Assembly: GCA_040954595.2 (NCBI GenBank)
Contig: CM082587.2
Span: 4,668,093 to 4,732,092 of the forward strand
Source: Balanoglossus misakiensis
Taxonomy: Eukaryota; Animalia; Hemichordata
Length of the DNA stretch: 64,000 bases
Direction: 5' to 3'
A program made the translations under genes and the position numbers. Positions 237 to 55,497 of the stretch are shown here, one piece after another. Under the pieces are notes generated by a model, which was given only the letters and a program-made list of their open reading frames with translations, had not been told where the DNA came from and searched no databases. Each line of letters starts with the position of its first letter. The stretch's first letter is position 1.

Positions 237-3179
237 CCCACCAATTATCCATCTTGACGTCACACCAGCAAATATCCTGCTAGATGAATTCTTCAACGCA
301 AGACTTGGAGATGTTGGTTTTTGCCATGATAAAAAAACTGTGGATAGTGATCCTTTGAAAATTCATGCCGTATTCTCTCCTGGTACACCCGGATACCAAG
401 ATCCTTCTCTGTTGGAGGATTGGTCCTTCCAGCCGACAAATGATGTGTTCAGTCTAGGTGTTGGTAAGAATCCAGAGTTTTGTTCTGACGTGTGCTTGTG
501 CGATCGGAGGTTTAATTTAGACAGACTGTCAGTACATGGTTTGAGGTTTGACACCTGTAAAATGTCTCACTTTAGCATAATTTGCATGTAATAGTGCCCA
601 TGTCCACATAGAGCTCTACGCAGTATCATTTTTAAAACCAATTACTTTTGTTTTGGTTTGTATAATGTGCTGTGTTGTGTTGTGTTGTGTTGTGTTGTGT
701 TGTGTTGTGTTGTGTTGTGTTGTGTTGTGTTGTGTTGTGCTATGTTGTGCTGTGTTTTACAATTACAGTGATGCTGCGAATGTTGACTGGAATGCCAGCA
801 CTCGTCAATGATGTACAAAAACCACCACTGTCCTTGCATGCGCATCTCCGAAAGCAAGATTGTTTCAAAGACATACAGAAGCTGTTCCAAAAAGTCATCA
901 GGGTATAGAATTAATAATGTTTATTTTGAATTTTGGCCACTTGAACATGCGCAGGGACGTCTCATCTTAAACCAATTGGGGCAAAATAGATGACATTTTT
1001 TTTCAATGTTTTAAGGTTACATAATTATTTAGGCAATGAACAGATATAATAATCATGCATTCAGTGTATCAATACATTGGAAAGATTTGTTTAATTATGC
1101 CATTTCTTTAATCTTTTTTCCCTGCAGTGTGTGTGGCTTTCTGATGAGAACAAAACAAATGCTAAAGCATTTGCAGAACTTATGTGCAAGTGCATTAAAC
1201 CAGCGTCGGAAGAGAGAATTTCAATGGCAGAACTCCACAAACAAATGAAGGTAAAGAGTTTTTGTGCTTAATAAATGGCGACAAAAATTGCATCTATGAT
1301 GAACAGATCACATGATATTATATGGAAAAATTCGATTCAGATTGCATAATGCTGCTTGTTTTAAAGTCGTACTCTTTTTTGTATTCATGGTTTGCATACA
1401 GGACCTGGTTCTTGACCACCTCTTCCATAAATCAGTGGATGGGACTGCAGAGGAACTGTGTGTCTTTTGCCATTTAAACCCAATTGGTAAGAAATATAAA
1501 AAGGTGTAATTTTTCAGCATATTCACATGATGTTTATCATCAAACAAATATATGTGATGTCGGGGATGTTTTGTCTCACGCTTGCCAGTGACCCATTGTA
1601 AGACAAAAGTCCCCAACTTGTGTAAGGTATATCTACCGGTAATCCCAGATAATTTAGGACGTGTGATTCACTTTATTCACTCTTTAATTTCAGTGCGTGA
1701 TCTCCACTTAATCAGCAAACAATGTACTGATACATGTGATGTAGCGTGTGTACAGTGTCTGATAGATTCCAAGACAAATCCGTTGGTATGCCCTGAGCAC
1801 GGGCCAGCACAGCCACCCATTGGTGAGTTACTGAGATTGGAATCATGAGTGTTTTCCAGAATCATTCTCTGATTCACTTGTGGCAGCACAAAATGTACCT
1901 TACATTAGTGCATCCAATTGCAATAATCCACAGGAAAGTTTCTTTACTCATCAATACTTAAAACGTGCACACATATGGATCTTTGTATTTCTGACAGATG
2001 TACACTTTTTCAAGGTTCATTTGTAAAATTACTAAACTACATGGTGTTTTGTATGAGGAAATGCAGGTCGATATGGCACAGGGTGGGGGGGGGGGGTACT
2101 ATTATCATACCCGGATGTATGGCCCAAGTTCATAGAGGCACATACCTGTACATTTATGGTAATTTTCGTAAGATAGGAGACACTCATTTTACATATACCG
2201 TACTACAGTGACATGGTGAAATGTAATCTTTTTTTTTGTCTGAAGGACATTCTATGAGTTTTGGTATATTCATTGGAGCAACAGGCTCAGACGATTTCTG
2301 TCTCGATGCAGAAGGATTATGTGAGGTGTTCACTGATCCCAATATTGGAGCAATAAGGTCAGTTTGTATACAAAATAAAGTCTGCATATAAAAATAATTG
2401 TTAATTCTAGCATGTAAAAATTATGATTTTTACCGATAATCGTACAATTCTGAATTCATACACAAACCGTGCCCCTATAGACTATTGTGTTTCAGAACTT
2501 TTGTGTCATTGGGGCAGTGATCCAGGAGAATTAAGATTCATTATTGTTAGCAGTTTGCCATGAAAGCTCATATACATACAAATCTACCCTTGGTGGATGT
2601 GAATAAGGCTGTTGGGCAATACACTTTTGGAAAATTCTGTGATTCTCATCTATTTCTACTTCCAATTCGAGATAAACCCAGATAAATGTAAGCCGTCACT
2701 GATGCACCAGGATTGTTTGAGGGTCATGCAGTGTACTGTCAGTCTAGATTTTAATGTTGGTAGATGTAACACAAAACAAGTACTGCATGATATAGAAGCT
2801 GTCTTCTGTGTCATTTTCCACACAGAAAGGAGAATGCTATTTTGATGACTTCAAAGTCAGAAGAAAATTTGCAGCCAACTGCAAAGAATATTTTGGAACA
2901 GTTGAAGAATATTAAGGACAAAATGACATGCGAAGAGGAATCAAGCTTGATCTTCTACTTCTCTGGGCATGGTTTCAACAAGGGTTCACGTGTACGTTGC
3001 TGTGAGGAAGACGAATTAGAATCATCACAACTACAATCAGAAATCCATAGCATGAACTTTACCCAACTTCTTCTTATTCTCGACTGTTGTTACGCTGCCA
3101 AAAATGGCCCAATGCAAGTAGGACTTGTGAGGTGTTTTGGTCCTGGCCAAGAAGTGATTTTAAAGAAAGCAATGGGGAG

Positions 3180-3222
<43 letters not shown>

Positions 3223-3669
3223 AAACTTCTTGAGGACAGTGGTATCCCAGTTTTATACAAAAAAGAAGTTGCTGACGTCATCGAGAAGTCTCTTCCAACG
3301 TTGACACAGCTGTCATCAAAGTACAGCGTAATCCAATGGTCATCCAGCATGCATGATGAGCAATCTGTAGGTTACAAAGGTGGACCCTCCGTCTTCACAA
3401 CGCATATCATCGCAGGGCTCCGTGCAGCAAAGATATGCAAGCTCGGTAGATCACCTAAAGGTTGTCAAGAATCCAAGACGTGCGAGAGATGCTCCAGATA
3501 CAGACAGAAAATGCAGAGTCAGTCATGCATATCGTTCTGTGAGCTCAGTGAGTATGTTTTTCATCATGTGAAGGAGCAGCTTTCCAGATATAAAGTATAC
3601 AATCAGACTCCTCACACTGTGGCCAAAGAAAATATTCGTGTGAACAGAAAAATAGCATATTGCTGTTAA
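237..3669 (+). CDS. 5'-truncated multi-exon gene: IRAK/Pelle-like kinase C-lobe + Cys/His zinc-finger-like segment + C14 (metacaspase-like) peptidase
   Basis: Phase-consistent GT-AG exons 237-463, 769-902, 1128-1250, 1402-1486, 1694-1822, 2246-2357, 2826-3669 (stop), about 550 aa visible. Kinase motifs: IIHLDVTPANILLD, ARLGDVG, GTPGYQDP, DVFSLGVVMLRMLTG, C..ERISM. Finger: CVFC..H..C..C..CVQC..CPEH. Protease motifs: FGIFIG, PTAKNI, FYFSGHG, LILDCCYA, QTP. Confidence 0.85.
674..738. repeat. (TTGTG)n microsatellite in an intron of gene A
   Basis: Direct pentamer array; it explains spurious ORFs 642-890 and the start of 672-908. Confidence 0.97.
2246..3669 (+). other. Peptidase C14 caspase-like domain (metacaspase/orthocaspase type) within gene A
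   Basis: Catalytic His in FYFSGHG and Cys in LILDCCYAA. The small-subunit-like part has QWSSS..EQS, SVFTTHIIAGL, ELSEYV and QTP, in the order expected for bacterial C14 and metacaspase domains. Confidence 0.85.
3181..3219 (+). repeat. Coding (GAT)13 microsatellite encoding poly-Asp
   Basis: In-frame run of 13 Asp inside the last exon of gene A. Confidence 0.95.
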
Positions 3670-6345
3670 GCTGAAGGATAGACAGATAGAGACTATCTTG
3701 TGTGTGTGTGTATGTACATGTATGTATGTATGTGCACAGCATGAAACTTATATCCTGAGTACAGCCCTTTCTTATGACTGCGGTGACTGGTTTTTAAGCC
3801 ATTTGATGGAAATCGGCTCCATGACAGGTCTAAGACCAGTGTTAAATGTGTGGTTTTAGTTTATTAAACTATATATTCTTGTCATTTTGTTGATTGAAAA
3901 AAAAATGTTGCATAATATTTTCCTGTAAACAGATTGCCTTGGTTGTACCTGTAAACCTTAATTAGTCAAAACTGGTCAATTGAAATGTCTTAATGGAAAA
4001 TGAAAAGCCTGCCAAAAAAAAGAAAGAAAAAAGAAAAAAGCCACAAATAAATACATCTGTACACATTTGATTCTAGGTACATTTAATGCTCTGTTGTTTT
4101 ATTTTTTGTACATCTAAAAGCCATGTAAGCATCATTTCAGAAAAAAAAACCAAGCAAAACAGGTTTTCATTGTTACTGAGAAAATGTTCAATAGAATTGA
4201 TTGTTACAATTTTTACATTAGTTCAGAAAGAATGTAACCGACATTACCGGTATGTACAGTAAAGGCACTATATATACAAGTACAAAAAGTCTTGTTTTCA
4301 GCTGCAGTTCACTGAACTTTTAGGAGTTAGCATAAAAATACACACTATGGTTATCTTACATGTGTCCATTAATGATATAATACAAGAGTATTTCCTTTTT
4401 GAGTTTGTTTAATCAAAATTCGTGTATACATGTTGCTAGTATACATGGGAATTAATGACAGAAAGTTTATTACATTGGTTTGGTTTTGATGGAATCCTTC
4501 AGTGAGAATTACTGCTGACTTTAAAATAGTTCTAGAAAAATTTGGTGGTTAAAAATGTTATCCTCTTTAAAACCGTTTTCGAACATCAATTTTATTGCAT
4601 GTATATTATCATAAAACATTTTGTATATGCAAAACATGTCTGCAAATATGCTAACATTCTCTTGTCTCTGAAAATGTTCTTTCCGATTCCTACTCTCCAT
4701 GTACAACCCAGTTGACACCAGAGTTAAATGCAAAATATGTTACTTTAAGTAATACATGTACTTTGATGATGTTCTGCAGCTGTTGGTTACAGAGACAACA
4801 ATTCAAAGCAGAACTCTGCAGGACAACTGGCATTCATGTATTTGTATTGAAAAATATTTCAGTTGCACAAAATCAAATTTTGGTTAATTGGCATTATTTC
4901 CTTATGTAATAGCTATGATGTTTGACACCAGACAATTAAGTAGTCACTTGTGATAACACACACAGCTCAGACTCTTAAATTTAAATTACTTCAATCCGAG
5001 CAAACAGTTTCACACAAGTGTTCTCTCACACATTCTGACGCCAAGGAAGAACTTCAGGAATGTGTGGAACAAGCACATTGGCAGACAATAGGTTTTGCAT
5101 GGTCAAGGTGAACCTGAGACATCTCTCATATTATTTTGGCCTGCATTATGATACAAAAATACTGTAAAATAGACACAAGTATTTCAGTACTTACAAAAGT
5201 TTGTTAATTAAAAGTGTACTCTGATTCTTGAAAAATTAAGGTATCTTTTATGCCCCTTAACCTCATTGAAATGATTAAAATGGACATGATTATTTCAATA
5301 CTGACATGTACAAAGTTCATTCATTTTGTTGACATAATTTAAAAAGACATGCAAGTCTTATTGTACTTATATAGTTCATTTGTTTAAAAAATATCCTGTG
5401 ATTATTCAACCAAGTAAGGCATCTCCTACATTGTCCCTTTACCCTTGTTGATAACTTCGACAGCATCAAAGAAAGGCACATGAAAGTTCCAACATGTGGG
5501 AATGCGTTGTATGCTCACTCAATAATATGTCGGTTAATTTAGTCACGTTACTGCTGCAGTGAAAGCTGATTGCAGTGGCATACTGGAGCAACAACAGTTG
5601 CAGTTTCTGTAGGGAACTTTGATGCACCATCCTTAATTGCTGCCATTACAGTAATACCGGTAATAATTATGGAAAATGATTGTTGTCTTGTTTAAATGAC
5701 TACTGGCTTGGCCCGGCACCATTCCCCTAATAGTAAACCCCTCATTATGAGGGGAGGGTTAGTTTCAAAGTCCTGCACTTGATTTTAGAAAGCTTTGATT
5801 ATCCTACAAACAATTCATGTCTAGAAATACATTGCCAATAGAAATATGATCATTGTACTTCATTTAAAGTATAAAAATCTCTTTACAGACTGGATCGTCA
5901 TCTTCAGGAGATATGATTTTCCAAAGCTTTGAGCCAAACTTAAATCTACCTGGTTATTTGCCAATTTGTTATCATCCAGTCACAATTCACAAATATCCTT
6001 AGCCTGAAAAATTTCCATCTTCTCACAGCTGCTATGTCGTTCCCAGAATGGTTCTGATTACACGAAGAAAGTCTGAGAACATGATTTTAAGAGTCCTGCT
6101 TATTTCCTTCCATTTTTGGCACAATGTCAATCATCGTTTAAAATATTCATGAAGCACACGCATATATATTTTCTAAGTTGTGACTCCTAACGCCGGATCG
6201 ACGAGGACGCGAAATCTGCATCAGGGAGGAGCATAATTTGACAACCTTCATCTTTTCACCATTTGCATACAACGTACCGGTAGTGTATTCAATAGCGGTG
6301 GGCAGTTAACTGAAGTCCCCGTGTACACCACTTTGATCCGAATCA

Positions 6346-9300
6346 TCACAGCATATCAGCAATCACTGGCATTTCCAACTCCACCAGCAAGTCGTACAGA
6401 TACCCCACAGTGGAATCGTCTTTGACCTCCCAGTAACTGAAAACTTCTGTCATTGGTAGAGACCTCTGCTGCTGTCTATAATACTGGATAGTCATATTAT
6501 CGATACCAAGCCTGGAAGCCACCATTCTCCAGTCGTGTAAACCTTCAAATGAAAAGAATCAGAAATGTTTTCATCCTTCCAGATTGCATCGCACGAATGT
6601 AAGCTAAGGAGTCACAGTGGCATTGAATGTTTTCGGAGGTTACGGTGCAGTTACTGAATTATGAGAAGGCGAAAATTTATCCTCACGTAACAGTTGCCTC
6701 TTTTGATATCATGACAATTTCCTCTCGCGAAAATAACCAATTTTACAGTACATACACATACAGACAGACTGACAACGGATGCAAGACAAAAACCGATCCC
6801 ATAAGCTAGCTATAGACTATCTCGTCTATCATAGCTAAAAATGCATCATGGCCAAAGGACCGTGATGGACACTTACCATCTGGGGATTCAACACTCAATT
6901 GTGTGCTTATTTTCTGCCTGTGTTCAAATTTCATGCTCCTTACTCTCATATTCTCAGGAAGTCTTGGACCTGAGAGAGAGAGAGGGGAGAGAGAGAGTTT
7001 TAGTATTAATTTCACTGAGCAGCATACTATGTCGACATTTTTGCCCCAATTTCTCATTCAAGCGTAATAGGAAGACGCACACATTTCAAAGTTGGTAGTG
7101 GGACAGGTTTACTTCTTATAAGTATGTATATACCTGCTTTTCCTGCTGGGAGGAACTCCCTCAGCATATTTCCAACATCCTCCCTCTTTAGTTTTTTCTC
7201 AATGACTTGGACTAATCTTCTCTCAGTACACCTGGGATCCATGTCTTGCCAGTATTCCAGAAATCTCCACACACAATACTTGTTCTGAGGAAAACGAAAA
7301 TGAAAAAATATTAACCAATGGCTACCAATCTCTGTGTTAACTCTACTAAGGAAGAAAATCAAAGTAGTGATTTTTACGAATACAAGATGGTGAATATATT
7401 ACTAGTATCTTCTTTGTTTTCAAAAAGACTTGTCAAACACTTCAAATGATATCTATACACCACCCTTTAATTCATAGTCATGCTGTTACCTCACCAATAT
7501 CTTGATCGGTCATGTGTAGCTGTTGAACCAGTTTTTGAAATTCCTCAACTGTGAAATCCTTCAACTCTCTAAAACTGTCAATCGCACCTCGTTTAAACAG
7601 ACCACCCAAGAGAGGGTTGCGGTATGTCGGTGCCAGCTGTTGGTAGGAGTGAGGTGGAGGGGGGTAAACATCGTAGGGTTGTGCAGGTGCAGCGTGAAGG
7701 CTAGGTGTTGGTTGGATACCGTAGGGTAGTTCAGAAGACATTGATTCTGGTGACATCACTCCAAAACCGTGGGGCTGGTGACCATGTGTTGGATGAGACA
7801 TGCCGATAGGTGCAGCCTGTGGTAGAGCAGCTGCAGCTGGAGACGAAACAAGTGAATAAGAGAAACCCCTCGCTAAGTGTGACATCGTAGAGATCATATC
7901 TTGGCCACCAAAGAACCAGGTCTGAATCTCCTACAATTCGTGATATAATGTTCTACACTAAAGAAAAACAAAATAAACAAACGTATCAACATACCTGAAC
8001 CATTACCAACATGCAGCCTCTGAAATTGTTGAATCAGAGCCCCTTCTTGGTTAACTACAGAAAAAATACATCAATTCATTAATGACAAAATGCGTTTAAT
8101 TTTGAGATGAAATGTCACGGTTTTGCCCATAGAAATATCATTGATAGAAAATGAGTCAGCACTTTTCTATTTCCAGCTACTTGTGCTCTACAATTACACA
8201 TTTTGACTTACTGTATCCCTTCTCTACCAAATGCTGGTGTAAACTTTCTGCTGCTTCTTTGCAACCATTTTCTTCAAGTGCACTCCTCAAACAGTCCAGG
8301 GTTGCAGATTTCTGTCTACATGCACATAATATCTGGAACTTCTTTGTATTTGCATCATATGGGTTATTGTGCATTACTGTGTCAAAGTCCACCTCTCTGA
8401 GATGAAGGTCACGGCCAACTGCCATACACTGAGCAACTGTTATTTCCTTGTAAACAAAATTGATGGCGGCGTCAACAACATCAACTGCAGAGACAAAAGT
8501 CAGAAATCAACACCACTGGCACAAAAGTCAATACCAATATATGGAGGTGTTTAAGTTTGGCGCAAATAAAAAAATTACCATGGTTTATAATGAGCAAATA
8601 GGCAATTGGTCCATTGCGGATTAAAAGCTATACATGAATTTCCATCAGTTTTGAAGAGCGTCCTCTTTAGGCGATTCCACATTTGTCTGACTCTGAATAT
8701 TAAAAATTGTTGAAAATGTAGTCGTGCACCTCTCTCTGTTGTCAATAACATATCAGAGCTTTCAGATGACCTTCTGCCGCAGTAAATATTTAATGCCAGT
8801 AAAAATACCACAGCTCTATACCTCTGCATGGATGTCTCTCTGAAGATGTTATACTCACTCTGTTGAGTGGCCGTGCTTGGGACCATACCAGTTGTTGTCA
8901 TGGCAGCCTGTGCTGTTGAGGTAAGTGGCATGCCACTTTGTTCTCTGAGTTGCCGTGCAATGTCTGGATACTGCCTATCACAAAATTCTACAAACCTAGG
9001 GAAGGCTGTGGGACCCTTTCGCAAGAGCATGTCTATAAATTTCCTCGTTTTATCAATATCTGTTAGCAAAGGATGTTTGATCTGCTGTTCTTCTTCGATG
9101 GAAAAGATCTAATGGGGAAAAATAGATAATGATAGAACTCCTAATATTAAATTTAAGTGACACTCATGTTTTGCAAAATATTTTTACAAACACTATTTCA
9201 CTGCAGATGGTCTCAGTAATGATAAATCTACCTTTGCGTGGAGTCGAATGTAGGATGTGTGAAGCAGAGACGTCTTTTTAGTAGAAAACATCAGGAGGCG

Positions 9301-9683
9301 ATCTGACGTACGTGTGCCTCCGTTGAGTGGGCGTGGCGTTTTTAGACACCAAGCGTGCGTGCGGTTCTGCAAGTTTGCCTCCGTACAGCCGATACTTTCA
9401 GCTGCCCGTTTAAAGTAACTGTAACTTGTCCAAAGGAAAACTCTCAACACTCACTTCCACTAGTGCAAGTGTTGGAATAGCTTTGCTTGTTACGGACAAC
9501 TCAATGTACATATACGTGCAAATCGTGGAATGTCACATATGTACAAGGAAGTTGTTAAAAAAAATATTTACTTGCCTCTGACATGAATTCGATCGCACAA
9601 ACGACATCCAAACGCTCGGCAATATAACGTTTTAGACCTCTGAGTATATCCCTGTGCGATTGCTGCATGCCTATTTCCGACAT
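6346..9683 (-). CDS. Death-fold adaptor: N-terminal CARD + three death domains (492 aa, 8 exons)
   Basis: Exons 9683-9576, 9108-8859, 8484-8212, 8054-7995, 7836-7490, 7284-7134, 6969-6877, 6542-6346, all phase-compatible. CARD: MQQSHRDILR..KFIDMLLRKGPTAFPRFVEFC. DD1: AVGRDLHLREVD..ATLDCLRSALEENG. DD2: FLEYW..LKREDVGNML. DD3: LSVESPDGLHDWRMVASRLGI..VFSYWE..TVGYLYDLLVEL. Confidence 0.85.
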
Positions 9684-10145
9684 AGCGTATTTTGTCGTTA
9701 GGGAAACCCCCAAGTCCAGCAACGTTTCTTCACATACGCGTACGTACGTGTCGAAAGCGAGGTTGGGAAAGCCCTAACGGGGAATTCGCAAACTGTCGTT
9801 CGTGGGTCAGCGTTAACCCAACATTTTTACAGTATCATCCGTTTCTGCCATACATGATAATTTCGATTCATAAATTGGATATTAATCGCATGTGCAATAT
9901 TTTGCTGGATTTAACCTGCAGATACAATAATTGACTGCGCTTTATAACGCGTATATTTTTTTGTACACGTACAAGATTTACGATCGAAGCCGCGTTCTGT
10001 TAATAGAGAGCTTGACTGAATTCGTGTGTGAGGGATTGCCTGCGATAACTGGTATCTAAAACGGTCGCGATGTGAACTGTGCATTTTTTACGTCGACCAG
10101 ATTTCCAGAAATGTCGCCGAACATGGTGTTTGCACTCGAAGAACA
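9684..10145. promoter_or_regulatory. Putative bidirectional promoter between gene B and raw, with clustered NF-kB/Rel-like sites
   Basis: 462-bp head-to-head gap, visibly CpG-rich compared with both gene bodies. GGGAAACCCC 9701-9710 fits GGGRNWYYCC; GGGAAAGCCC 9765-9774 and GGGAATTCGC 9780-9789 are near matches. Confidence 0.55.
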
Positions 10146-13100
10146 ATGTCTGCCCTTTCGTTCGTCTGGCGATCTTTATTTTGCACAGGAAAACACAGTC
10201 GGCCGGACACGGTGAATTTGTTGCGGCGGCCAGTGTATGGACTCGTAACCAGGTGAGAGCCGAATAAAAGGTGCAGTGCCTTCTCACTAGAATCTTGAGG
10301 GCACCTGGTGGGCTTACCGGATACCTTCTTATAAGTTGTGATTCATGTCATCTGCTTACGAAGCACATAGTCAGGGATTGTGAAACAAATCTGTGAATAA
10401 TGCGCACCACTGTTTCAGTGTTTAGTCATCTATTTTTAGTAACGTGGTCACCACCCATCATAATACATGTAGTGGCGTCTGCTTGGATTTTCAATCATGT
10501 CTTGTTGTGGAGACCCGGCAAATAGTGTTGGAATTGTTAATTCGTAAGTACAACAGATCATTCCATGTAACGTGTATGCGGTAAAAATCATGCCCCACTC
10601 CCTTAATTATAAATGAATGTGTTTTTGTGATGTGTCTTTATGTGCACACATGGAAACTGATGACATATCGTTTGAATCACATTCACAAAGCTTTAGCTGT
10701 CAGGTCATAGCTTACAATAGAGTAACTCATATTCTTTTGTGAAGCGGTCAGGGGGAGGGGCGGGTGTTTACCAAAACAGGGTCACTGACCTTTTCCTATT
10801 TATCATAATCTAAATTAAGATATTAACAAAACCCTCTCTTTAAATTTGCTTGTTCTGCAGGGAACTCTTTCAATTATTTGAGCACTATAAGTCTGAGAGT
10901 GGAAAATTGGCTCCGGCAGAAGTTTTGCAAGCTCTTCACCAGATTCAGTTGTACCCTTCCAAGTCTCAAGGTAAGAATTTTGTTCAGCCTGGCATTAAAG
11001 TCTTAAAGAATTGAAGACGTGTCTTTAACCAAACCTTGCCTAATCAGATCTGGACGTTTTCTGTATGCCGAACACCCTTTCCATTGATTATTCTAGAAAT
11101 TGAAACAACCCCCAATATTTCTCCTCACACAGTACGTATACTGTTAGAGAGTGCAAGGGACTGTTCATCTGACAAGATCAAAACTAAACTGACGTTCGGA
11201 GAATTCTGCGTCTTAGTCTCTGAACTCAGGGAAAGGAAATACAGACAGTCTTGCATGTACCGGTAAGCACATATTTCTTGTACATGTAATTATCCATGCA
11301 TGTAAAATGTACCTATTCATTCTTTACATCACATTTAGTGTGATACTTTTGAAGTCATCTCTGGAATCTTGGAGGCATGATTGGCATGCCTGGAGTGTTG
11401 TCTATAATGTCTATCTACATTATCTCTGTTTCAGAAATACAGATTACAAAAAAATTCCAATTCTTCTTGTTAGAATTCCTTATAATTGAACAGAAAATAA
11501 ATTAGCATAATTAGCTAAAGAGTCAGGTTCAATTTGACCCTTCTGAGTGTGCCCAGCTAAGGACTGGATTGTAACTGACAAATGCAGCTCAGTTTCCATT
11601 GGTCGTTTTAACTGTCACAGTCAGATATGTCTGTTTCAAGTGTTTGTCTGAAATGGACAGTTGGAGAGAATTCAAGACAGCTATTTCGACACCATTGTGC
11701 CAGCCCATTGTTAGCCCAGAGTTAACACAATGGAAAAGATTGCTTTGATCTGTGATGTACAGTCATGCAAATATGTCCACACTATCACCACAGGGGTCTG
11801 CACCAGTCCAACCTATGTTGGATCATGTATCACGTATCATGCGTCTAATCAAAAACTACCATGCATTAAAATCTGATATCGATGTTTAATAGCATCTTGC
11901 ATATCACAGAACCACTTGTTATTAGATTACAGTCGGAAATCCAAGCCCAGAAAAAAACTTGCGCAGCGACACAGTGGGTTACTGCACATTGTTGGCTAGA
12001 CATGGTACATCTTAATATATGTACTAATTAATCAATAACTCTTTTCACTGCCACAGTACAGTCTCGTGTCATTGTTGACATTTTTCCACTGCTAATGTAC
12101 ACAATTAATAATACGCAAGTTTACTTTTTGAAATGTTAATATTTTATATAAAATAAAAGAGTACATGTGATGTATGTGCATTTTGAATAATCAACAATTG
12201 TGAACAAATGCAGTTCAACAAGTTCCTAATGAAAAGTAATTCTGTAAGCGATTTATTTCCACCCTGACTCCATTGTTTAACAAGGTCGGTGTTTAAATTC
12301 TCAGCCTAGGGATAATTACTTTCTGACTTAAATTGAAATGAACTTCACCGGGGTAGAGAGAGCACACGAACATGTACAGGGCATCCCTTTTCTCGAGATA
12401 TGCCAGACACTAATTGCTGTTTTATCTCTGCTCTTTTCCACTGCAGGCAGACTAAGATGGGATGTGTTCACGGGTAAGTAGTGGCCTTTGTTAATACATG
12501 AGTCAATTATAGTTGCTATGGTTACAGGCGTAGATTGCAGTCCGTCCACTGGGAATATGCGGGTGCGCTGATGATTGTATACATTACAGGTACATGTACT
12601 TGTAAAATAATCTGATAATGTGTGAAAGGATTCTGTTATCGTGTGTTTTTTTTTTCATCCAATACGGTAGTACTGTAACGGTGAAGAGTTAGGGTCTGTG
12701 ACACAAATGCATACACATGTATATGTAGCCACTCGACTGAATCCGCTTCAGCCAAACAATTTAATGATCTCATTATCTCCACCTCTGGAAAGAAAATAAT
12801 CATCAAGTAAAATTGGAACTGTGAATTTTGATGGAAATTGTCCTGTCTGACACGTAATGGATCAGTTTATGATTTGGGGCTTTGGAGAAATCCAATTGAG
12901 TTGAAATTTTCAGAAGCGAAGCGACTAATCTCCGAACGTCTGCAACCTTTTGGCCTCTGTGTGACAGAGATGAATGGCAGGCTTCTGACAAGCCAATGCA
13001 ATCATCAGAAAATGAAGTCAGCGTACTGTTACCAGGCGTTGCATGTAGATGCATGAATTAGTTATAGGGCAGTTGGCAAGGTTGTGTATCTATTAGTCTG

Positions 13101-16100
13101 TTTGTGAGGGTGTGTGTGTATTTGGGGGTACAAATGTAAATACTGATTTCAACACTCGACAGTTTTCTGATTAAAGGTTACCTTGAAACGGAAAAGGTAA
13201 TGAAATCATATGAATCATGGTGCATGACAGGAAATTTAATTTTTAAATTTACAAAATTTGTTTCTTAGTGGAAAGACAGAGACCTTAACTGGTTAAAATG
13301 AAAAAAAGAAAAGAACTCACATGAAACCATGATACAAGATACAAAAATCATTATTACAGTATTGGTTGTCAGGGTTACTAATGGAACGGCCAATGTTTGA
13401 AGTGAAATACTTGGTGGTTGCTAAGTAAGTTGTCGATGACAAATTGATGTATCATCGCACCGATGAACAAAGACCGAATGCACGGCCTTGCAAATCGGGC
13501 AATCCAGACGTTTAATTATTCATCCAATGGGGAACCGCTGTCAATGACAGTCATCTGTACGTTTAATGCAAAAGTCAGGATTGTTCACACTCTTTGCTGT
13601 ACTGTACCGGGTATGACTGTTCGTAACGTGCTTTGTATTGGGAAACCTCTGCTCCTTCAATCCGGAGTCTGTCTACAAATTACAAGGGAAGGGAATTTCT
13701 ACTTCCTTAGCATTCCAGATGTTCTTTTTAAGGTCGGTGAGTTGTTGTTAATTGTCGCAGGGCATCCCGAATCATTTTCACAGAATTAAGTCCTCATGTC
13801 CTGAAGCAAATCAATGTGTCAGAGTTTTTTTATGGATATCACAGCATTTCCAGAAGCTGGTAATCGTGCCTACACTTCTGTGAAATAGAGTTTTAAAATG
13901 TCTCACAAATGATATATACATGTACATGTATGTACCAGTAGTCAGCAATATACATTGTACTGTCGATAAAAAAATCTGCCATTGAAGTCATGTACATACA
14001 AGTATGTTAATTGAAATCACCAAGCCCAAGTATGATTCATGTCATGATTATAGGTCAGAGACTTCTGACTGCAAGGCTATAGGAAAAAAAACAAAATCCT
14101 CAGAGACTATCATTTGAATGCTGACGACGCCTTCATATTAGATCAAGGTTGAGCGTAATATATTCCTGGGATGTACAGTAACCTTTTCGTGTCCGATTGC
14201 TGTGGATCAGTTTCCATGGCAATGGCAAATGTAATCAGTGGCTTGATCCAGCGTGTGTTAAGTGTGATCAGAGCACTACACTCCTATGACCTCAAAGGAT
14301 TATTCAATGTTTAGGCTATCAGAGAATGCAAGGAACTACTGTCAATGGATGAAAATCAGAAATATAGAGTTACTCACTTGATATGAAGGTTGGCTTCATA
14401 TGTGACGTTCCAGACAATCTGTGATTTATCATATATGTACCAGAGTAGGCTAAGCTCATATTTCCCAGATAGAGAAAACGAAACAAATGGTTTGAAAGGT
14501 TTCAATTCTTGGAAATGGGGAATCTGTTCCTGAGAAATTCACCTAGAAAAGAAAAGTAAACTGATGTGTTTGTTTGCACATTACATGCAATGTATATTGT
14601 GTGTGTGTGTTGCTGGTATGCATGATTCCATGTATGCACTTGCGAGGAGGTTGGTTGGTCTTTCTGTTTAGTGTCTTTGTCTGTCTGTCTGTCTGTCTGT
14701 GTTTCTCTGTCTGTTTGGACAAAAGACAGTATGCTGAGGAAGTGAAAGTGTATGAAATTAGGCAAAGTTTTCAGATGTATTTCCTGGTTGCATGACTAGT
14801 GGCAGTAAACATAAAATGCAAAATTTGACGTAGTTCTTCTATTTCTCCCTAATACCTTTCAGAGGTCCAGTTACACCCACTGCAAGACAAATAAGTAGCA
14901 CTCGTGTGAATGGATCAGCCAAGAGTACAGCCTCTTCAAAAAGGAGTGGCCTGCATACAGCAAAATTTGAAGGTAACATTTACTGACAATTGGTGTTTGA
15001 ACCTGTAAATACATGTATTTTTGAAATTACGGAACACAGTGTGTTTTACATTTCTGATGATTTATTCTTTTCCGTCAGTATTTTTAGGTGGTGCTTGCAA
15101 CCCGACCACATGGAGGCAGGACACGGCTATACCAATGTTGAGAGAATACGGAATCACGTTCTATAACCCAGTAAGTTTATCTTGGTATATAGGGGCAGAA
15201 CTTTCAAGAAAAAATCGAAACAGATATTGATACCAATTCATCCCATTGCTTGAATACATGCATGTAATTGGCATTAACGTTAAAACTCTGACGGTAAAAA
15301 GGGTAAAATATTTGATAAATTTCCAAATTTGTAATTAATGCAAACTGGCATGAACTGATTTGCTTTGGTTGATTTTACAGCAAGTGTCCGAATGGAGCCA
15401 AGACCTGATTGAAATCGAAGAACACGCCAAGCAGTCAGCCAAGCTGCTCTTGTTTGTTTTCGAGGAAGAGACGAGAGGAATTGCATCCTTGGTAGAGGCT
15501 GCCTTCCTGTCAGGTATGGCAACACTTCGCAAATGTGATTATTTTCTGCAAGATTTCAGCATGTCGGATTTTTGATGTGAACCATTTCAGCACATTGCAG
15601 TGTATCCAAATTGTAATAAAATATTAACAGGTGACTTTTTTGCCTTTTGCTTTATAATTTTAGGTGCAGATCGTCTTGTATTTGTTGTAATGCTTGGTGT
15701 TCCCAGACTCAACTGTGATTTGAATGGAGAAGTTGTTAGTGAAAGGTAAGATTTCTAAGAAACATTTGTGTGTATATTTTGCCACATCGTACTTAACAAG
15801 TCGTATAAAATGCATACCAAGAGAAGCTTGAATTAAGGCTAATCCTACATGTAATTTATTTTTGATCAGGTGTCATGATATTTAACCCTTTGCACTCTGA
15901 CCCCCCAGTGACCTATGACATCATCACTCAGTCAAGAGTTAATTGGTCAATCTGCCTACTTTCTGACGCCCATTTCTCCTTCTTTCTGTCATTTCACAGT
16001 GAATGCGAAGATTTGGAGAGAGGGCAAGCCTTCCTCTGCGACTTGGTGGAGAGGCAAGGGTTGCCTGTCTTCGAAGACATTCCAACAGCGTTGTCGTGTG

Positions 16101-18607
16101 CCAACAAAGTACTTAAACAGGGTATCGAAGTGTCGGACCTGTCGCCGGGCGACGGTGTCCAGCCAATCAAACAGCCCCACAGCAGACCAGGTGATAGGCT
16201 GATGTAAGTGAACACGGTCTAAGTGACACCTGGGTACATTTATACACAGACTTGGTTCAAGATGGTGAATAAAAAAATAAAGTAATTTGCAACTGCTTGT
16301 ATAGGTCACTTTATACCTCACAAAGACTACCCGGTATATGATTATTGGTGTGTGAATATTTTCTTGTATGTGCAGTTTATGTACCCCAAGGCAACAGACT
16401 GGAGTTTGTACAGTAAGATCTATCTGCCCCAATTCCCCGTGTCTAACATTAACAATGTACCTCGCGACCTTGTCATTCTTTCAGTGCTTTACAAGAAATT
16501 TTTAATACTTATGATCAAAAGAAGAGCGGACAAATCAGTGTGGATGATGTAAGTAGCTGAATTTTTTTCCCTCACTTTAACTTCACTCGTTATTCTGTAT
16601 TTATGGCAGTTTACATCATATCAGTAATGTTCAATAACATTAAGCCATGTTCCTGTATTCTTCATACTTAGATTTACCTAGCAGTGAAATCGGCAACAGG
16701 TCGCGACGACCTCTCAGCAGCTGACTTTGACTGCATCCGCAGTAAATGTTCGTGTCGGGGCGACAGTGGCACCATTCAAGAAATCAACAGTCTTTCATTC
16801 GACGAATTCTGCTGCCTAGTAACAGAGTACAGCCGCACGTGGCCATCTTTTCACGGAAGGGGGTGTCTGGCACACTACGTGGAATCGATCAAGGAAACCG
16901 CAAGAGAATTATGCCGTGAGTTGTTTCCTCAGCCGATCGGTTACTATGGTAATTTGGTGATTTGCTGAGAACTGCTCCTTGTGAAGTAGGAGCACACTCA
17001 GTGTGTTTGTTCCTCAGTTGTTCCTGACACAAAGACAGACATCACACCAGGATGTTCATGTTGACTGTCTGTCTGTCGGAACCATTCAAGCATCCTGTCA
17101 TCTGTGGATGCAAAATGATCAAATTTTACAACTCTGTTGATTCAGTGACTCATTTCGTAGTGAAAAACCTGTGACTATTTACATGGCTTCATAATAGCAA
17201 TCATCAAATTTTATTTTGAGTATTATGTTACCTTTTTCTTTGAAGCTATAAAATTGACCAGTAATTTCAATGGCCCTTTGGTATTTTTTTGTGAAATACC
17301 CAATGTTTCACTTCATTTTGCCAATATAGTTTTGACAGGACACTCAATTAATTATGCTCTGTAGTCATCACCGTTTTAGTAATTTTTTGTGTGATGAGTG
17401 TACTGGTGATTAACTGCCGTGGTGTGAAACTTTCATTTCTTTGATCCAGGCTGGTTGTACAGTAACCAGAGCAACGGCGAAATTTACGAGGACTTCTCGC
17501 CGATGAAGCGAGATGTCTTTCTCGGGGGCAGCTGTAGTGACAGTACGTGGAGAGAGGACATCGCCATTCCTTTACTAAGGTATTGATTTCTGTCAAACAT
17601 TGGCTGTTTAAGTAGTGAATTCAAATAATATAATGCATTGACAGAAATTTGACAAAATGTACTAATTTGGAGACCATCCCTAACTTTGTTTCAGGAAAAG
17701 AGGAATGTCTTACTACAATCCAAGGAAGGCAAAATGGAGTATCAGATTCATCCCTCTGGAACACGAAGCAAAAGAATACTGCAGGTGGTTGCTCTATGTC
17801 ATTACGGCGACAACGCGGGGCGTGGGGTCCTTAGTCGAGGTAGGTGTGAAATTTGGAATATAGTGCCACCAAGTGGTGGTTTGTAACACCGGATGTACAA
17901 ACAAGACATCTCGTCTAAACAGTAAACACCACATTGTAAAAAGTTGTTTCCCCTGCATCTCCTCAGTTTGGTACCTCCATGTTGTTTTCGGTGCTGTGGT
18001 CAGACCCATATACAGGCCCGTAGGGGTGGAAGGGTAATAAAATGTGTTTATAATTCCTCATAGGCGGCTCATTACATCGGACAGGGCAGGAAGGTTGTGG
18101 TGTGTTTGCAAGAACTGTCCGAGTCAACAGTCGTCAAGGGGGAAAAGGTGAGTGTGAACTGATCACAAGTGATCATCAAGTTCGAGGTTTAATAGTGACT
18201 CGTTTATATAAGTCCAGTAACTCTGTGCGTAGATCATACTCACACGTACATCCCTCTGTCAGTGCCAGCCAAAGCCTTGATTCAGACTAATATGTGTTCT
18301 GTATCATTCTGTCTGTGTGGTACAACACAAGAACACTCCATCTCTTCTTAATGCTAATTTGCAGAGTCTATAGAGATCACAGCCTCAGATTTTTCACATG
18401 CTGCACAAACTTTGATGAACCTCTACACTTCTACACTGACTCTTTTCCACTTTTTTGCCTCAGTTGACAAATAAAGCTGTGAGGGATTACAACAGAGGCA
18501 GAAAATACCTGGCTGACTTGGCCAACAGACACGGTGTACCCATCTTTGATGACTTAACTGAGTCATTGGAATGTGTCATGAAGAAGATCCAGTCAGAAAC
18601 TCAGTAG
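10146..18607 (+). CDS. raw: Raw/OLRN-1 family protein: tandem (EF-hand-like + NDT-like) x2, about 592 aa, 14 exons
   Basis: Exons 10146-10252, 10861-10970, 11133-11262, 14863-14972, 15079-15170, 15381-15513, 15664-15745, 16000-16203, 16485-16548, 16672-16915, 17450-17579, 17695-17839, 18064-18147, 18464-18607. Repeated signatures VFLGGACNPTTWRQDTAIPML..FYNPQ..SLVEAA and VFLGGSCSDSTWREDIAIPLL..YYNP..SLVEAAHYIG..DYNRGRKYLADLA. The first exon is the least certain. Confidence 0.88.
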
Positions 18608-21215: not shown

Positions 21216-22418
21216 TTAAACAATCTTAATAGTCACATGTCTTGTGGTCTTTGTTCTGATTTTCTGTCCAATTGTTGTTGAAATTCCTGGTAAAATAGTT
21301 TCAAAGAATTGCCTTGGTATTTGTCGTTTTTTCGGTAGTTAAAAAACAGCATAATGGACTAGCTGCCTGTGCTGGGTATCTATTCACTGCGATCGTATAA
21401 AAACAAAAGTCGGGATATCTTACCAGTCTCTTGCTCGTAGAGGGCGCCGACTTCTTCCAAGGACAATTCCCGGTAGAATATTTGAAGATCGCTCATCCCG
21501 GCGTTGCCACGTTTCGAGGTGTCCATCATGGCGCTGTTAGAGCCACCTATAATCAAGACTGTGGAGGGGGAAGGAAATCCCAAAGGTAGAATTAACACGA
21601 TAAGGAATGCAATGAATTTAAAGTCCGGACTAAAAAATAGCCAAAAGTTTTAGTTTCTGGGAAAGTACTTACTTGTATCTGTGAAAGTGGTAGACGGGTA
21701 TGTGTCTGTCTCTTCTATATGCGTTTGTGGCAATCCATCGACGTACATGTTCCCCGTGCTGGGTGCCCTGAATGTCGCCACAAAATGAAACCACGTGTTT
21801 TGTGGGAACCCGTCGATGGCGAACATGCGCCTGTACAAAGCTGTGCTGTTCTTGGGAACCTGCGCGGCCCACACCAGCAAGGGGGTGGCGCCGTCCACTG
21901 TCCAAATGGCAAACCCCCTCCCGTTCATGGTCTGTCCGCCAGACGTCAAGTGGTAACGAATGGTCGGGTTCTGGCCCATGTCGATGTTCATCCACACGGC
22001 CACGGTGGCACCCTCGCCGCACAGGGCGGCGTCTGCCAAGCACTCGCCGTCGAAGTCCGGGAAACTGACGATATTGCCCGTGTCGTAGTGTGTGGCGCAC
22101 GTGTGCACGGCCAGTTTCGGCACCGGCGCCGGGGTGAGTGGTATGTCGGCCCAAGTGGGGAGAAAGACGAAGATGTCACCGCCTCTACCCTGCATCACTT
22201 CGTATACCGTTGGAGCCGGTGATGCCGGTGACGCGCACACGTTTCCAAGGCAATCAGCGGGTTCTGGGTCAGATGCTGCGCATTTGCCAGAGAGTTCCCA
22301 GTGGTACGTTGGTCTTAAATCTGTTGGTTGAACAAAATGGGATCTTATAATACGTGCAGCCGCAGTATATGTCCAACAAACGACCAGGGTAGATTAATGA
22401 AGCCTGTATTTTGTGTTC

Positions 22419-22502
<84 letters not shown>

Positions 22503-25500
22503 TAGTCACCGAATATTGCAAATTAGGGATGGATTTCAAATCGTCCCAAAATATATACGTGTATCTTTACTACATTAGAAGGCCCATGCCATTATATACG
22601 GACACAAGTGGACACGTACCGTAGCATGAAGGAGCTACATCACTCCAGATCCCGTTGGTACACGTTAGATTACTCGCCCCATACAAGTAATAGTTCACGA
22701 CACAGGAGTAGGACAACGATTCTCCGTGGTGAGTGCCTCCTGTGCGGCTGCCGTCGTCGGGTGTGCCAGGGTCACTGCAGTCCGCTGGAATTATACAGTA
22801 ACAGAATGTGAGATAGATAGACAGACATACATGCGCACAGAGAGACAGACAGAGAGACAGACAGATACATACATACATAACATGTTTCCTGGGCGCGCTA
22901 GCTTAAAACCAGAACATTTCCTACTGGTAACTGAAATTGTTTTTATTTATTTGGACCTTGTCTTTCCAGATAGTATTTTTGTATATCCATTCTTTAGGGA
23001 CGATATGATCATCCTAAATTGTTCTCTAGATTCTGGAGGAGGCATACAAGCCGTCCTCAAACATTTTGCGATAATTTTTTTTTCTCATATACCGTGAAAG
23101 GAACTCATTATAATGGAGCATTCAGTGGCACGGTTATGACTTGTATTTTGTTAACGTCTTTAATATATTATTTGTCACAGAATCCTTCTGCAAGTGAAAG
23201 AATAGTTAACATTTGAGTTGAAGACTGGGAAATGAAAGCTCGCTGCTGATTGGTTCAAGTCACCTGGACCACCTGAACATGGAAATTGCGTCTTGTCATC
23301 CGGGCATTTTCGTAAAAGACGGCCATGCTGCTGGTACCGTGCATGTAGCCTGCGTTTAGTTGCGGATGCGATGAACTCAATTCAACAACAGAGTTTCTCT
23401 GATGTTTATTTTGCTGCAAAGAGGCGGTAAGTAAAATAACAGGAGTATACAGTTACTCAATTTTCGACCGGACTCGTATGTCTTATTGTGGCGAGTTACG
23501 GACTAAAAAGTCAGACTTCGACGTTTCTCCGACTACCACTGAGATGAAACAGCGTGCTGGCTATCGTCAGACAACGCCCATTGTTTTGTTTACTTCCGCC
23601 TCGTACTTTGAAAGCGACCCATTTTCATTGGCATTGAGCGGATTGGTTTATCACTTGTGTTTTTGTTAACTTCTTGTACGGTGATCACGGTAGAAATTTT
23701 GTTTCATGTTGACTGATAGACATTCACTTCGTTTGCTTGTTCTGCAGATCCAAAGGCCAGATGTACTGATAATGATGTCCAGCAACCAAGCTGACCAGTT
23801 GTTCCTTCCCGCCATGCATCTGTGACTGGTGCTCGTACGTTCAACGCGGATGCTATGATGTTACAAGCATGATGTCAGAGTAAGCGGTATCAGCCAAGTT
23901 TTTTTTGGCAATTTTTAAGATCTTTCAACGATTCTGACTGGTGCCGGTAGCCAGTTCAGCGAACCGATTTTGCACAAATCTGAAGAATGCAACAATACGG
24001 ATGCCATATGTGGATGTCATTACAGTTTTGAAACCAACATGACTACATGCTCGGTGCATGGGTCATTTTTGTTACGGCACCAACAAGTTCCTCGGCTTTG
24101 AATGCTTCGAAAGGTGCTTGTTGTTGTAAGTGTGTGTGTGTGCATGTGTGTGTCACGGTAAGTTGTACGGTATATTTGGGCCATGCAACTGTAGTCTACA
24201 ATGAGGTGAGCGTTTGTATGTTCCATGGCTGAATGAAGACCAGTGGATGGTATGAAGTTTCATAACAAGTAAGTTATATAGACATAAATAAAATCCCCGG
24301 TGCGGGTGGGTCCCATCCCTCAGACAGTCGGTTAATACTTAATACAGGTTTTTTGAGCTTTGTCATCGTTCGTCTTTATTCAATAAAAAATATTAAAAAC
24401 ATCCACGTACTGCTAAAACTGGGAGTGGATTATTCCCGTACCGAACATCTTCGCGCGTGCGTATATAGATAGTACAAGTTCTTTGAGATTTATAATCTTT
24501 CGTCATTATTCAATAAAAAAATGTTAAAAACATACACGCACTCATAATACTGGGAGTGGTTTATTTCCGTACCGATCATCTTCGCGCGTGCGTATTTAAT
24601 ACAAGTTCTTTGAGATTTGTGAGCTTTCGTCATTTTTCAATAAAAATTTATCTAAAAAATGCATGCACTGATAAAAATGGGAGTGGTTTATTTCCGTACC
24701 GATCATTTTCCCTAACTCCATGTACGATGATAAAATTGAAGGTATTGTCATTCCTTTAATTTGTTATATCTCTACATGTATGTACAGAGTTTGACATAAG
24801 CCAGGAAGTATTAGTGAGGATGGGTATATTTTAGGTGTTTAATTGCTTGAGAAATGACTTGTATTTTGATCATGAGTCACTGGATATTCATGTCAAAATC
24901 TTTCAATACAATACGTTGTCCACTTACCAAAACATAACGGTGGTACATTGCTCCACACGCCATCGCTGCAAGTGACCATACTATCTCCAACCATTGTGAA
25001 CTCTGAATTACACACATAATTCATGACGGTTCCGTGTGTCAGTGTGCCAAAGCGTTGTCCGTTAACTGGCGTCCCGGGGTCCGTACAGTCAGCTGGAATG
25101 ATAAGACAAGCACATTTCCTTCAGCTAGACAGATTTTCAGAAAATGATATATAATTCTCCAAGCATTTCAAATATATGACATATTAAAACAATGAAGAAT
25201 GCGTAGTGTTCACCGTCTTGTTTCATAAAAATCGATCTTTTATATTTTCTCCATATAATTAACATAGAGGTGACGGCCGCCATTTTGAATTTCAAATTTG
25301 AGACCCCTTAATTTTCATTCGCAATCTTTAAGAAATTATCTAAAGTTACTGGAGTAAAATATGACAAAAAGTTCCATCATAGCCTAACATCATTTGCGGG
25401 CACCCGTGCGCCCTTACCGTAGCATGTTCCCGGACTGTCGCTCCACGTCCCGTCGCTGCAGGTAGACGTGCTATTTCCGACCAAGGTGTAGCCTCCATCA

Positions 25501-40500: not shown

Positions 40501-41123
40501 TCCGCCTACATTAATTTAGCAGTTGCGCAAATCATGCTAAACAATATCGTAAATAGTTAACCTATACTGCACCCAATCTGGCTTCCAATTTCAAACGTAT
40601 ATTTTTGCAATTTCGCCTTGACTTAGAACGGCATTGAATTTAGTGGTTCGATTGACAGGCGCCTAAAGAGGTTTCTTTAACCGAGTTCCGCTTGGTAGTC
40701 CGAACGGGATGTTGATAGAATAGGACGCAATTGGTAAAAAATGCTATTTAGTCACACAATATTCAGTTTTGAAGAATGACTTCACCGCTGCAACGACGAT
40801 TTTCCCCTTTTCTGCAGTGAAAATTATCGTCGACCTGAAGTGACCCATCGTCAGAGTACAGTCAACTAACATTACCTTACATGAAATAAACCCTGTTACT
40901 TACTGGTGGATGACGTTGCTGTTTGGCAAATTTTCCCGGTGAAACCAGGTGAACACAGACAAATATAGCCTTCCGGGCCACAGTCTGGCGCGCAAAGGCC
41001 CCCGTTGAGACATGGATTGACGCCGGGGCAGTTACAACTTGCCAATATCGTCTGCCACAATGTCACTGAGTGAATGAACAAACTGAGTGTTTCTCGATAT
41101 CGATGCGAGACCGCTGTTTTCAT
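21216..41123 (-). CDS. Secreted mosaic protein: signal peptide-EGF-LDLa x2-sushi/CCP x5-LamG/pentraxin-like domain
   Basis: Exons 41123-40904 (signal + [22 protein letters not shown]), 27394-27161 (2 LDLa), CCP exons ~27054-26884, 26091-25927, 25582-25418, 25092-24928, 22784-22620 (all phase 1, mostly 165 nt), 22320-21673 and 21558-21424 (LamG-like: [33 protein letters not shown]). The link across the 13.5-kb intron and the terminal exon (21286-21216) are inferred. Confidence 0.7.
22419..22501. repeat. (GAT)n microsatellite, intronic
   Basis: About 27 trinucleotide units; source of the poly-His pseudo-ORF. Confidence 0.97.
24340..24710. repeat. Three diverged tandem copies of a ~130-bp unit
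   Basis: Recurring blocks TACAAGTTCTTTGAG..TTCGTC..TTCAATAAAAA..TGGGAGTGG.TTATT.CCGTACCGA.CAT starting near 24340, 24472 and 24598. Confidence 0.9.
25272..25304 (+). repeat. Dispersed repeat fragment (possible MITE-like element end)
   Basis: GCCATTTTGAATTTCAAATTTGAGAC recurs as its reverse complement at ~57360-57385. Confidence 0.55.

Positions 41124-55444: not shown

Positions 55445-55497
<53 letters not shown>

What the first reader, a model, noticed from the sequence alone, without database searches (positions are those of the whole stretch)
237..18607. Compact three-gene cluster that reads like an immune/cell-death module
Seen: the kinase-protease gene is tail-to-tail with a CARD-3xDD adaptor, which is head-to-head (462 bp) with raw, and kB-like sites lie in the shared gap. 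Established: IRAKs are recruited through death domains and caspases through CARD/DD adaptors; Drosophila Raw restrains JNK signalling, C. elegans OLRN-1 restrains p38 immune signalling, and NDT-like domains share a fold with TIR domains. Inference: adaptor, effector protease and nucleotide-processing regulator may be co-regulated parts of one undescribed pathway. Adjacency alone is weak evidence in animals.
Basis: inference. Interest (0 to 1): 0.72.

Follow-up and report, generated by a model that had tools for sequence, protein, structure and literature searches.

The report
Kinase-metacaspase gene in loose immune neighbourhood
Three intact genes of a likely acorn worm sit side by side, but they are likely neighbours rather than one pathway; the surprise is the first gene, which joins an immune-type kinase to a predicted protease of the plant, fungal and bacterial metacaspase type that reviews say animals lack.

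Summary
The layout is real. Gene A (kinase, Cys/His finger, C14 protease) is tail-to-tail with gene B (CARD plus three death-type domains). B is head-to-head with raw, 462 bp ATG to ATG. Three kB-like sites lie in the gap, more than shuffles give (2 of 3000), but all three are on B's side.

The pathway reading is weak. In Ptychodera flava, the closest relative found, all three homologues share a contig and A and B have consecutive accessions. In Glandiceps the A homologue is on another contig, and B and raw are 1,097 accessions apart. The A homologue starts with tandem DEDs, not a death domain, so B has no like-for-like handle on it. Raw is now a published cADPR hydrolase that works with SARM1 (PMC13455253).

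Best reading: inherited local gene order, a likely NF-kB-responsive adaptor, and raw as promoter neighbour (0.6). Full three-gene module: 0.1. The more notable item is gene A, a DED-DED / IRAK-like kinase / finger / metacaspase-type fusion that six literature searches did not turn up.

The parts
237..3669 (+). Gene A, 3' part (exons 237-463, 769-902, 1128-1250, 1402-1486, 1694-1822, 2246-2357, 2826-3669); 5' exons lie outside the window
   Evidence: Open 550-aa spliced frame; 51% to P. flava and 48% to Glandiceps homologues
237..1250 (+). IRAK/Pelle/RLK-like kinase C-lobe; the catalytic-loop Lys is Thr here (HLDVTP against HLDVKP in both homologues)
   Evidence: Pfam; best PDB sequence hits of the homologue are plant RLKs and IRAK4; motif check
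1402..1822 (+). Cys/His finger with seven Cys and one His at identical spacing in three species; predicted RING-like zinc binder
   Evidence: no Pfam name; the RING likeness is inference
2246..3669 (+). Caspase-haemoglobinase-fold protease of metacaspase type (His in SGHG, Cys in DCCY, no QACxG)
   Evidence: Pfam C14; motifs; fold searches rank metacaspases first; nearest Atlas clusters bacterial
6346..9683 (-). Gene B, 492 aa: CARD, DD1, Pro-rich linker, divergent DD-like domain, DD3 (exons 9683-9576, 9108-8859, 8484-8212, 8054-7995, 7836-7490, 7284-7134, 6969-6877, 6542-6346)
   Evidence: DD1 Fas/FADD-like and DD3 MyD88-like; model of the Glandiceps orthologue, mean pLDDT 75
9684..10145 (.). 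462-bp divergent gap, CpG-rich (observed/expected 1.65 against 0.44 and 0.54 in the flanking genes); likely shared promoter
9701..9788 (.). Three kB-like sites (9701 perfect; 9765 and 9779 with one mismatch), all in the B-proximal half of the gap
10146..18607 (+). Gene C, raw/olrn-1 orthologue, 15 exons, 624 aa, two NDT/TIR-fold domains and two EF-hand-like domains
   Evidence: 8 of 8 published conserved residues at the published spacing

Best explanation
The three genes are intact neighbours whose order is likely inherited from the common ancestor with Ptychodera rather than held together as one pathway. Each likely acts separately. B is likely an NF-kB-inducible scaffold: its MyD88-like DD3 would join receptor/IRAK complexes, its Fas/FADD-like DD1 a FADD-type adaptor, and its CARD a CARD caspase (inferred from fold matches). 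Raw likely hydrolyses the cADPR made by SARM1 and so damps ASK1/JNK, as shown in fly and worm; it shares B's promoter DNA and may be co-transcribed passively. A is predicted to be recruited through tandem DEDs (seen in the Glandiceps homologue only) to a DED-bearing adaptor, where clustering would switch on a protease predicted to cut after Arg/Lys. Any A-B link would need a FADD-like third protein. Shown: gene structures, domains, motifs, contig sharing. Inferred: regulation, partners, activities, and physical distances in the other genomes.
For: Linkage falls off with distance. The window's raw groups with P. flava (SH-aLRT 96, quick tree, 21 of the stored raw homologues). There raw is XP_070532847-850, B is XP_070532868-869 and A is XP_070532870, all on the 40,999,305-bp contig. 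In Glandiceps raw (XP_077986085) and B (XP_077987182-183) share the 25,083,287-bp contig but are 1,097 accessions apart, and the A homologue is on a 28,985,948-bp contig. Hemichordates keep local linkages well (PMC4729200, passages), while P. flava and Schizocardium show no apparent microsynteny (PMC11175523, supplementary legend in the main text). That is the pattern seen here. A's homologue has DED-DED and B has no recognised DED. Raw's activity and partner are published (PMC13455253, abstract and sections 5, 7, 11) and its key residues are kept. All 3 kB-like sites are on B's side.
Against: All three homologues lie within 24 accession numbers in P. flava although raw differs by about a quarter of its residues, so the neighbourhood has lasted a long time. 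B and raw stay on one contig in Glandiceps. The gap meets two marks of selected co-regulated pairs (5'-5' and under 1 kb; PMC3514665 passages). The Glandiceps A homologue may be a paralogue: only proteins of 491-2000 aa were searched. Accession order as a stand-in for position is my recalled assumption and was not tested. I had no control showing that other neighbours in the window are equally conserved in P. flava.
Confidence: 0.6

Rival explanations
1. B and raw are a selected co-regulated pair. NF-kB would fire a bidirectional promoter and raise the adaptor together with a cADPR-clearing brake on SARM1/ASK1/JNK signalling. A is a bystander.
For: Head-to-head at 462 bp, CpG-rich, kB-like cluster beyond shuffles; same contig in both other species; raw restrains JNK through cADPR (PMC13455253).
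Against: 17 records lie between raw and B in P. flava, where A and B are consecutive, and 1,097 accessions separate them in Glandiceps. The sites are all B-proximal. Same-chromosome retention is expected from macrosynteny alone.
Confidence: 0.17
2. A and B act in one death-fold complex, B bridging to A's tandem DEDs through a FADD-like protein, and their tail-to-tail linkage is functional. Raw is the bystander.
For: Consecutive accessions in P. flava; DD1 is Fas/FADD-like (E 5e-09; Z 15.7, rmsd 1.8 over 96 residues); among named records, B and A homologues were found only in acorn worms.
Against: Different contigs in Glandiceps; tail-to-tail genes do not share a promoter; death-fold genes are common in such genomes, so two can meet by chance (31 of 86 earlier notes on this genome fit 'death domain', unchecked AI notes).
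Confidence: 0.13
3. First reader's module: adaptor, kinase-protease and Raw are co-regulated parts of one undescribed pathway.
For: All three are near each other in two species; all three have immune or cell-death-type domains; kB-like cluster.
Against: Broken in Glandiceps; A's promoter lies outside the window, on the far side from the kB-like sites; no like-for-like fold between B and A; raw is far older and wider than A or B (616 homologues).
Confidence: 0.1

Closest known systems
Raw / OLRN-1 cADPR hydrolases (PMC13455253; abstract and sections 5, 7, 11 read)
   Same: Two TIR/NDT-fold domains with two dimerisation domains; F, C, E, E of TIR1 and D, R, Y, D of TIR2 all at the published spacing.
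   Different: Nothing substantial; no link to death-fold adaptors appears in the sections read.
Metacaspases and orthocaspases, MEROPS C14B (Yca1, AtMC4, TbMCA2, GSU0716; bacterial EACC1-type caspases)
   Same: His-Cys dyad, Asp before the catalytic Cys, an Asp on the first helix; top fold matches (Yca1 Z 15.0, rmsd 4.2, 168 aligned; the first 20 listed-or-skipped Foldseek ranks show only metacaspases); weak EACC1 profile hit (3.8e-07, far under its cut-off).
   Different: Intron-containing animal gene; DCCY instead of DxCH; fused behind DEDs, a kinase and a finger; extra C-terminal Cys cluster; no significant sequence relative in PDB, prokaryote genomes or plasmids.
Caspase-8/FADD/RIPK1 complexes and IRAK4/Pelle kinases (recalled)
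   Same: Tandem DED prodomain (Glandiceps homologue), IRAK-like kinase and clan CD protease: the parts of a ripoptosome-like complex.
   Different: All in one chain; the protease lacks QACxG; the kinase has DEDs, not a death domain.
RAIDD/CRADD, MyD88, FADD adaptors; amphioxus shuffled death-fold genes (PMC2575513, passages)
   Same: B is a catalytically empty death-fold scaffold with CARD and DDs.
   Different: Four death folds in one chain, no TIR; the amphioxus hybrid caspases in that paper keep QACXG.
Conserved ancestral microsyntenic pairs (PMC3514665, passages)
   Same: 5'-5' orientation and a gap under 1 kb for B and raw.
   Different: No evidence of conservation beyond one close relative.

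Membership tests
Raw/OLRN-1 | Two NDT/TIR-fold domains plus dimerisation domains; orthology | tested here: met
   Pfam PF15891 on two exons and two stretches in the Glandiceps orthologue; tree; insect relatives named raw
Raw/OLRN-1 | Catalytic glutamates and TIR2 D-R-Y-D residues | tested here: met
Raw/OLRN-1 | cADPR hydrolase activity | not testable with these tools
   Needs an enzyme assay
IRAK/Pelle kinases (gene A) | IRAK/RLK-type kinase domain | tested here: met
   Best PDB sequence hits of P0001 are RLKs and IRAK4, E 1e-13 to 2e-10; no kinase tree was built
IRAK/Pelle kinases (gene A) | N-terminal death domain | tested here: not met
   The only full-length homologue has two DEDs and no DD; the window's own N-terminus is out of range and the P. 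flava model starts mid-kinase
Caspases C14A (gene A) | QACxG active-site motif | tested here: not met
   DCCY in 3 of 3 sequences
Metacaspases C14B (gene A) | His-Cys dyad with Asp before Cys and an Asp on helix 1 | tested here: met
   3 of 3 sequences; matching the helix-1 Asp to TbMCA2 Asp95 (PMC4357240 passage) is by position only
Metacaspases C14B (gene A) | DxCH motif | tested here: not met
   DCCY; PMC5756287 section 4 says the motif is not strictly diagnostic
Metacaspases C14B (gene A) | Fold closer to metacaspases than to caspases, with a p10-like part | tested here: inconclusive
   Z 15.0 and 13.6 against 12.9 legumain, 10.9 best caspase and 10.3 MALT1; model mean pLDDT only 38.9, p10 region under 50
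Metacaspases C14B (gene A) | Arg/Lys specificity and calcium dependence | not testable with these tools
   Needs an enzyme assay
Type 1 paracaspase (MALT1) (gene A) | DD and Ig domains, DxCR motif | tested here: not met
   No DD or Ig by Pfam; DCCY. Descent from a type 2 paracaspase was not tested
Death-fold adaptors (gene B) | CARD and death domains, no catalytic domain | tested here: met
Death-fold adaptors (gene B) | A DED able to pair with A's DEDs | tested here: inconclusive
   The middle domain aligns in register with DDs but weakly (hhalign probability 6% to DD, 4% to DED); Atlas lead is Death; it was not folded alone
Selected co-regulated gene cluster | 5'-5' orientation with gap under 1 kb | tested here: met
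   B and raw only, 462 bp
Selected co-regulated gene cluster | Linkage kept across distant relatives | tested here: inconclusive
   Kept in P. flava, apparently broken in Glandiceps, judged from contig lengths and accession numbers only
Selected co-regulated gene cluster | Correlated expression | not testable with these tools
   No expression data reached

The most novel reading that the evidence does not exclude
Acorn worms have a compact NF-kB-driven module in which a four-death-fold adaptor channels Toll/MyD88 signals, through FADD, to a single-chain DED-DED / IRAK-like kinase / RING-like / metacaspase effector of bacterial type, while co-induced Raw clears cADPR to cap SARM1-JNK signalling. 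The narrower claim, that gene A is an active animal metacaspase-type protease fused to an IRAK-like kinase, I put at about 0.6.
Probability: 0.1. Interest if true: 0.8.

Novelty: new variant of a known kind. Interest (0 to 1): 0.42.

Why it matters
As a cluster it likely matters little. Gene A matters more: a review states that metacaspases are absent in animals (PMC5756287, section 4), and here a metacaspase-type domain with an intact dyad sits in a spliced gene of three acorn worms, behind caspase-8-like DEDs (in Glandiceps) and an IRAK-like kinase. If active, it is an animal signalling protease with non-caspase specificity that puts kinase and protease steps in one chain, and it can be tested by simple expression. 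If the module were real, it would tie cADPR turnover to NF-kB in a deuterostome.

Tried and rejected
No whole genome is held, so A's 5' end and its paralogues could not be read. No RNA holder was listed for 760-10700; this says nothing on expression. Complex prediction of Glandiceps B with the Glandiceps A tandem DEDs gave no answer (score 0.00, both chains folded without alignments). Scans for related loci found none: prokaryote genomes with the protease alignment (114 pattern matches, 0 confirmed), metagenomes with a raw exon (493, 0 confirmed), plasmids by tblastn. A first guess for B's first exon (ATG at 9291) was dropped: the exon at 9683-9576 with a GC donor matches both orthologues. A micro-exon in B's middle domain was dropped because Glandiceps has the same short junction. 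Reading the middle domain as a DED came from a weak BLAST hit (E 0.017) and was not borne out; the fold search rows were filled by the other three domains. Of 8 hits to B's DD1, 2 are full orthologues, 1 is a Saccoglossus DD-DD model without CARD, 3 are other DD proteins and 2 are spurious repeats. The Saccoglossus poly(I:C) study (PMC10210618; passages and one supplementary file) gave no hit for the Saccoglossus B-like gene or the domains; its gene tables are in an outside repository that I could not see and may bear on induction. PMC11108557 on paracaspases is not held. Literature searches that showed no description of A's or B's architecture or of the cluster, seen at listing level. Passages were read from PMC8195603, PMC2575513 and PMC5978004. 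Earlier-findings look-ups by place, sequence, words and relatives were empty.
Full report
Observation. Splicing by coordinates gave three open frames with canonical sites, apart from one GC-AG intron in B: A 237-3669 (+, 550 aa, 5'-partial), B 9683-6346 (-, 492 aa) and C 10146-18607 (+, 624 aa). The ATGs of B and C are 462 bp apart and the stops of A and B 2,676 bp apart. Homologues confirm all three models. No RNA evidence was obtained. The closest relatives are acorn worms, and the raw tree places the window with Ptychodera flava (support 96, quick tree of 21 rows chosen from the named raw hits).

Gene A. A search with the last exon among proteins of 491-2000 aa found 3 of 1175 candidates: one P. 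flava model and two Glandiceps isoforms. The Glandiceps protein reads DED, DED, long linker, kinase, finger, C14. The P. flava model begins mid-kinase, so DEDs are seen in one species only. The kinase is closest to plant RLKs and IRAK4 among solved structures. The window has Thr where both homologues have the catalytic-loop Lys, which may weaken it (inference). The finger keeps seven Cys and one His at identical spacing in 3 of 3 sequences. The protease has SGHG and DCCY, 39 residues apart, and no QACxG. A low-confidence model of the P. flava protein (mean pLDDT 38.9; ten-residue blocks of 55-84 over residues 241-360) matched yeast Yca1 best (Z 15.0, rmsd 4.2, 168 aligned), then Arabidopsis MC4 (13.6) and legumain (12.9), ahead of caspases (10.9 or less) and MALT1 (10.3). 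Foldseek also ranked metacaspases first. The Atlas clusters shown were all bacterial C14-type or unnamed bacterial proteins; the tool warns that this is no sign of gene transfer, and no sequence-level prokaryotic relative was found. PMC5756287 section 4 says metacaspases are absent in animals and that type 2 paracaspases exist in early animals, so descent from the latter stays open.

Gene B. A full scan with DD1 gave 8 hits, among them orthologues in P. flava and Glandiceps with the same four-domain order and a Saccoglossus DD-DD model. DD3 matches the MyD88 DD (E 4.6e-09), DD1 the Fas DD (5e-09) and the CARD ICEBERG (8e-05). The fold search agrees: caspase-9 CARD Z 15.9, FADD DD 15.7, MyD88 DD 12.5. 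The middle domain is a confident six-helix unit that is likely a divergent DD.

Gene C. It is raw: 76% to P. flava and 68% to Glandiceps over aligned columns, with 616 homologues including Trichoplax, insects, molluscs, echinoderms and amphioxus. PMC13455253 (abstract, sections 5, 7, 11) shows that fly Raw and worm OLRN-1 hydrolyse cADPR made by SARM1 and so modulate ASK1/JNK. All 8 conserved residues are present at the published spacing.

The gap. It is CpG-rich (1.65 against 0.44 and 0.54 in the flanks). The kB-like trio exceeds shuffles (1 to 11 of 3000 by consensus used) and is the tightest cluster in the window, but the region was chosen after the fact and all three sites lie within 105 bp of B's ATG. 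They argue for NF-kB control of B more than of raw, and say nothing on A, whose promoter is outside the window.

Linkage. No eukaryote genome could be read, so I used contig length and RefSeq accession order; that order tracks position is my recalled assumption. P. flava: raw 847-850, B 868-869, A 870 (XP_070532...), one contig, with 17 records between raw and B. Glandiceps: raw and B on one contig, 1,097 accessions apart; the A homologue on another. This is what ordinary inheritance predicts, given high linkage retention in hemichordates (PMC4729200 passages) and no apparent microsynteny between P. flava and Schizocardium (PMC11175523 passage). Against this reading: the neighbourhood has survived substantial protein divergence, the Glandiceps A may be a paralogue, and I had no control from other neighbours.

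Mechanism and verdict. Most likely (0.6) three separately acting genes: an NF-kB-inducible death-fold scaffold, a housekeeping cADPR hydrolase sharing its promoter DNA, and a DED-recruited kinase-protease. Selected B-raw co-regulation 0.17; an A-B complex through FADD 0.13; the full module 0.1. The cluster is probably ordinary. Gene A's architecture, and to a lesser degree B's, did not appear in six searches (listings only, most subscription papers not covered) and carries most of the interest score.

Noticed in passing
window 237-463: Gene A's kinase has Thr in place of the catalytic-loop Lys kept in both homologues; possibly a weakened kinase in this species.
   Followed up: partly
window 9576-9569 (-): GC-AG first intron in gene B; the exon matches both orthologues.
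   Followed up: yes
window 3178-3221: A GAT repeat encodes a run of 14 Asp in the p20-p10 linker of A; shorter acidic runs occur in the homologues.
   Followed up: no
window 11097-11132: The raw model has a 12-residue insert absent from six aligned homologues; the true acceptor may lie 36 bp further on.
   Followed up: no
window about 21600-41300 (-): Exons with LamG, sushi and EGF domains, likely one large extracellular protein.
   Followed up: partly
window 44651-46867 (+): A 738-codon open frame, Arg/Asn/Gln-rich, with strong AT skew and no Pfam hit.
   Followed up: partly
window about 48000-58900 (-): A rhodopsin-family 7TM exon downstream of LDLa and CUB exons; looks like a GRL101-type receptor (name recalled).
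   Followed up: partly
P0150 (Saccoglossus XP_006818426.2): A DD-DD model resembling B's DD1 and DD3 without CARD or middle domain; a shorter relative or an incomplete model.
   Followed up: partly
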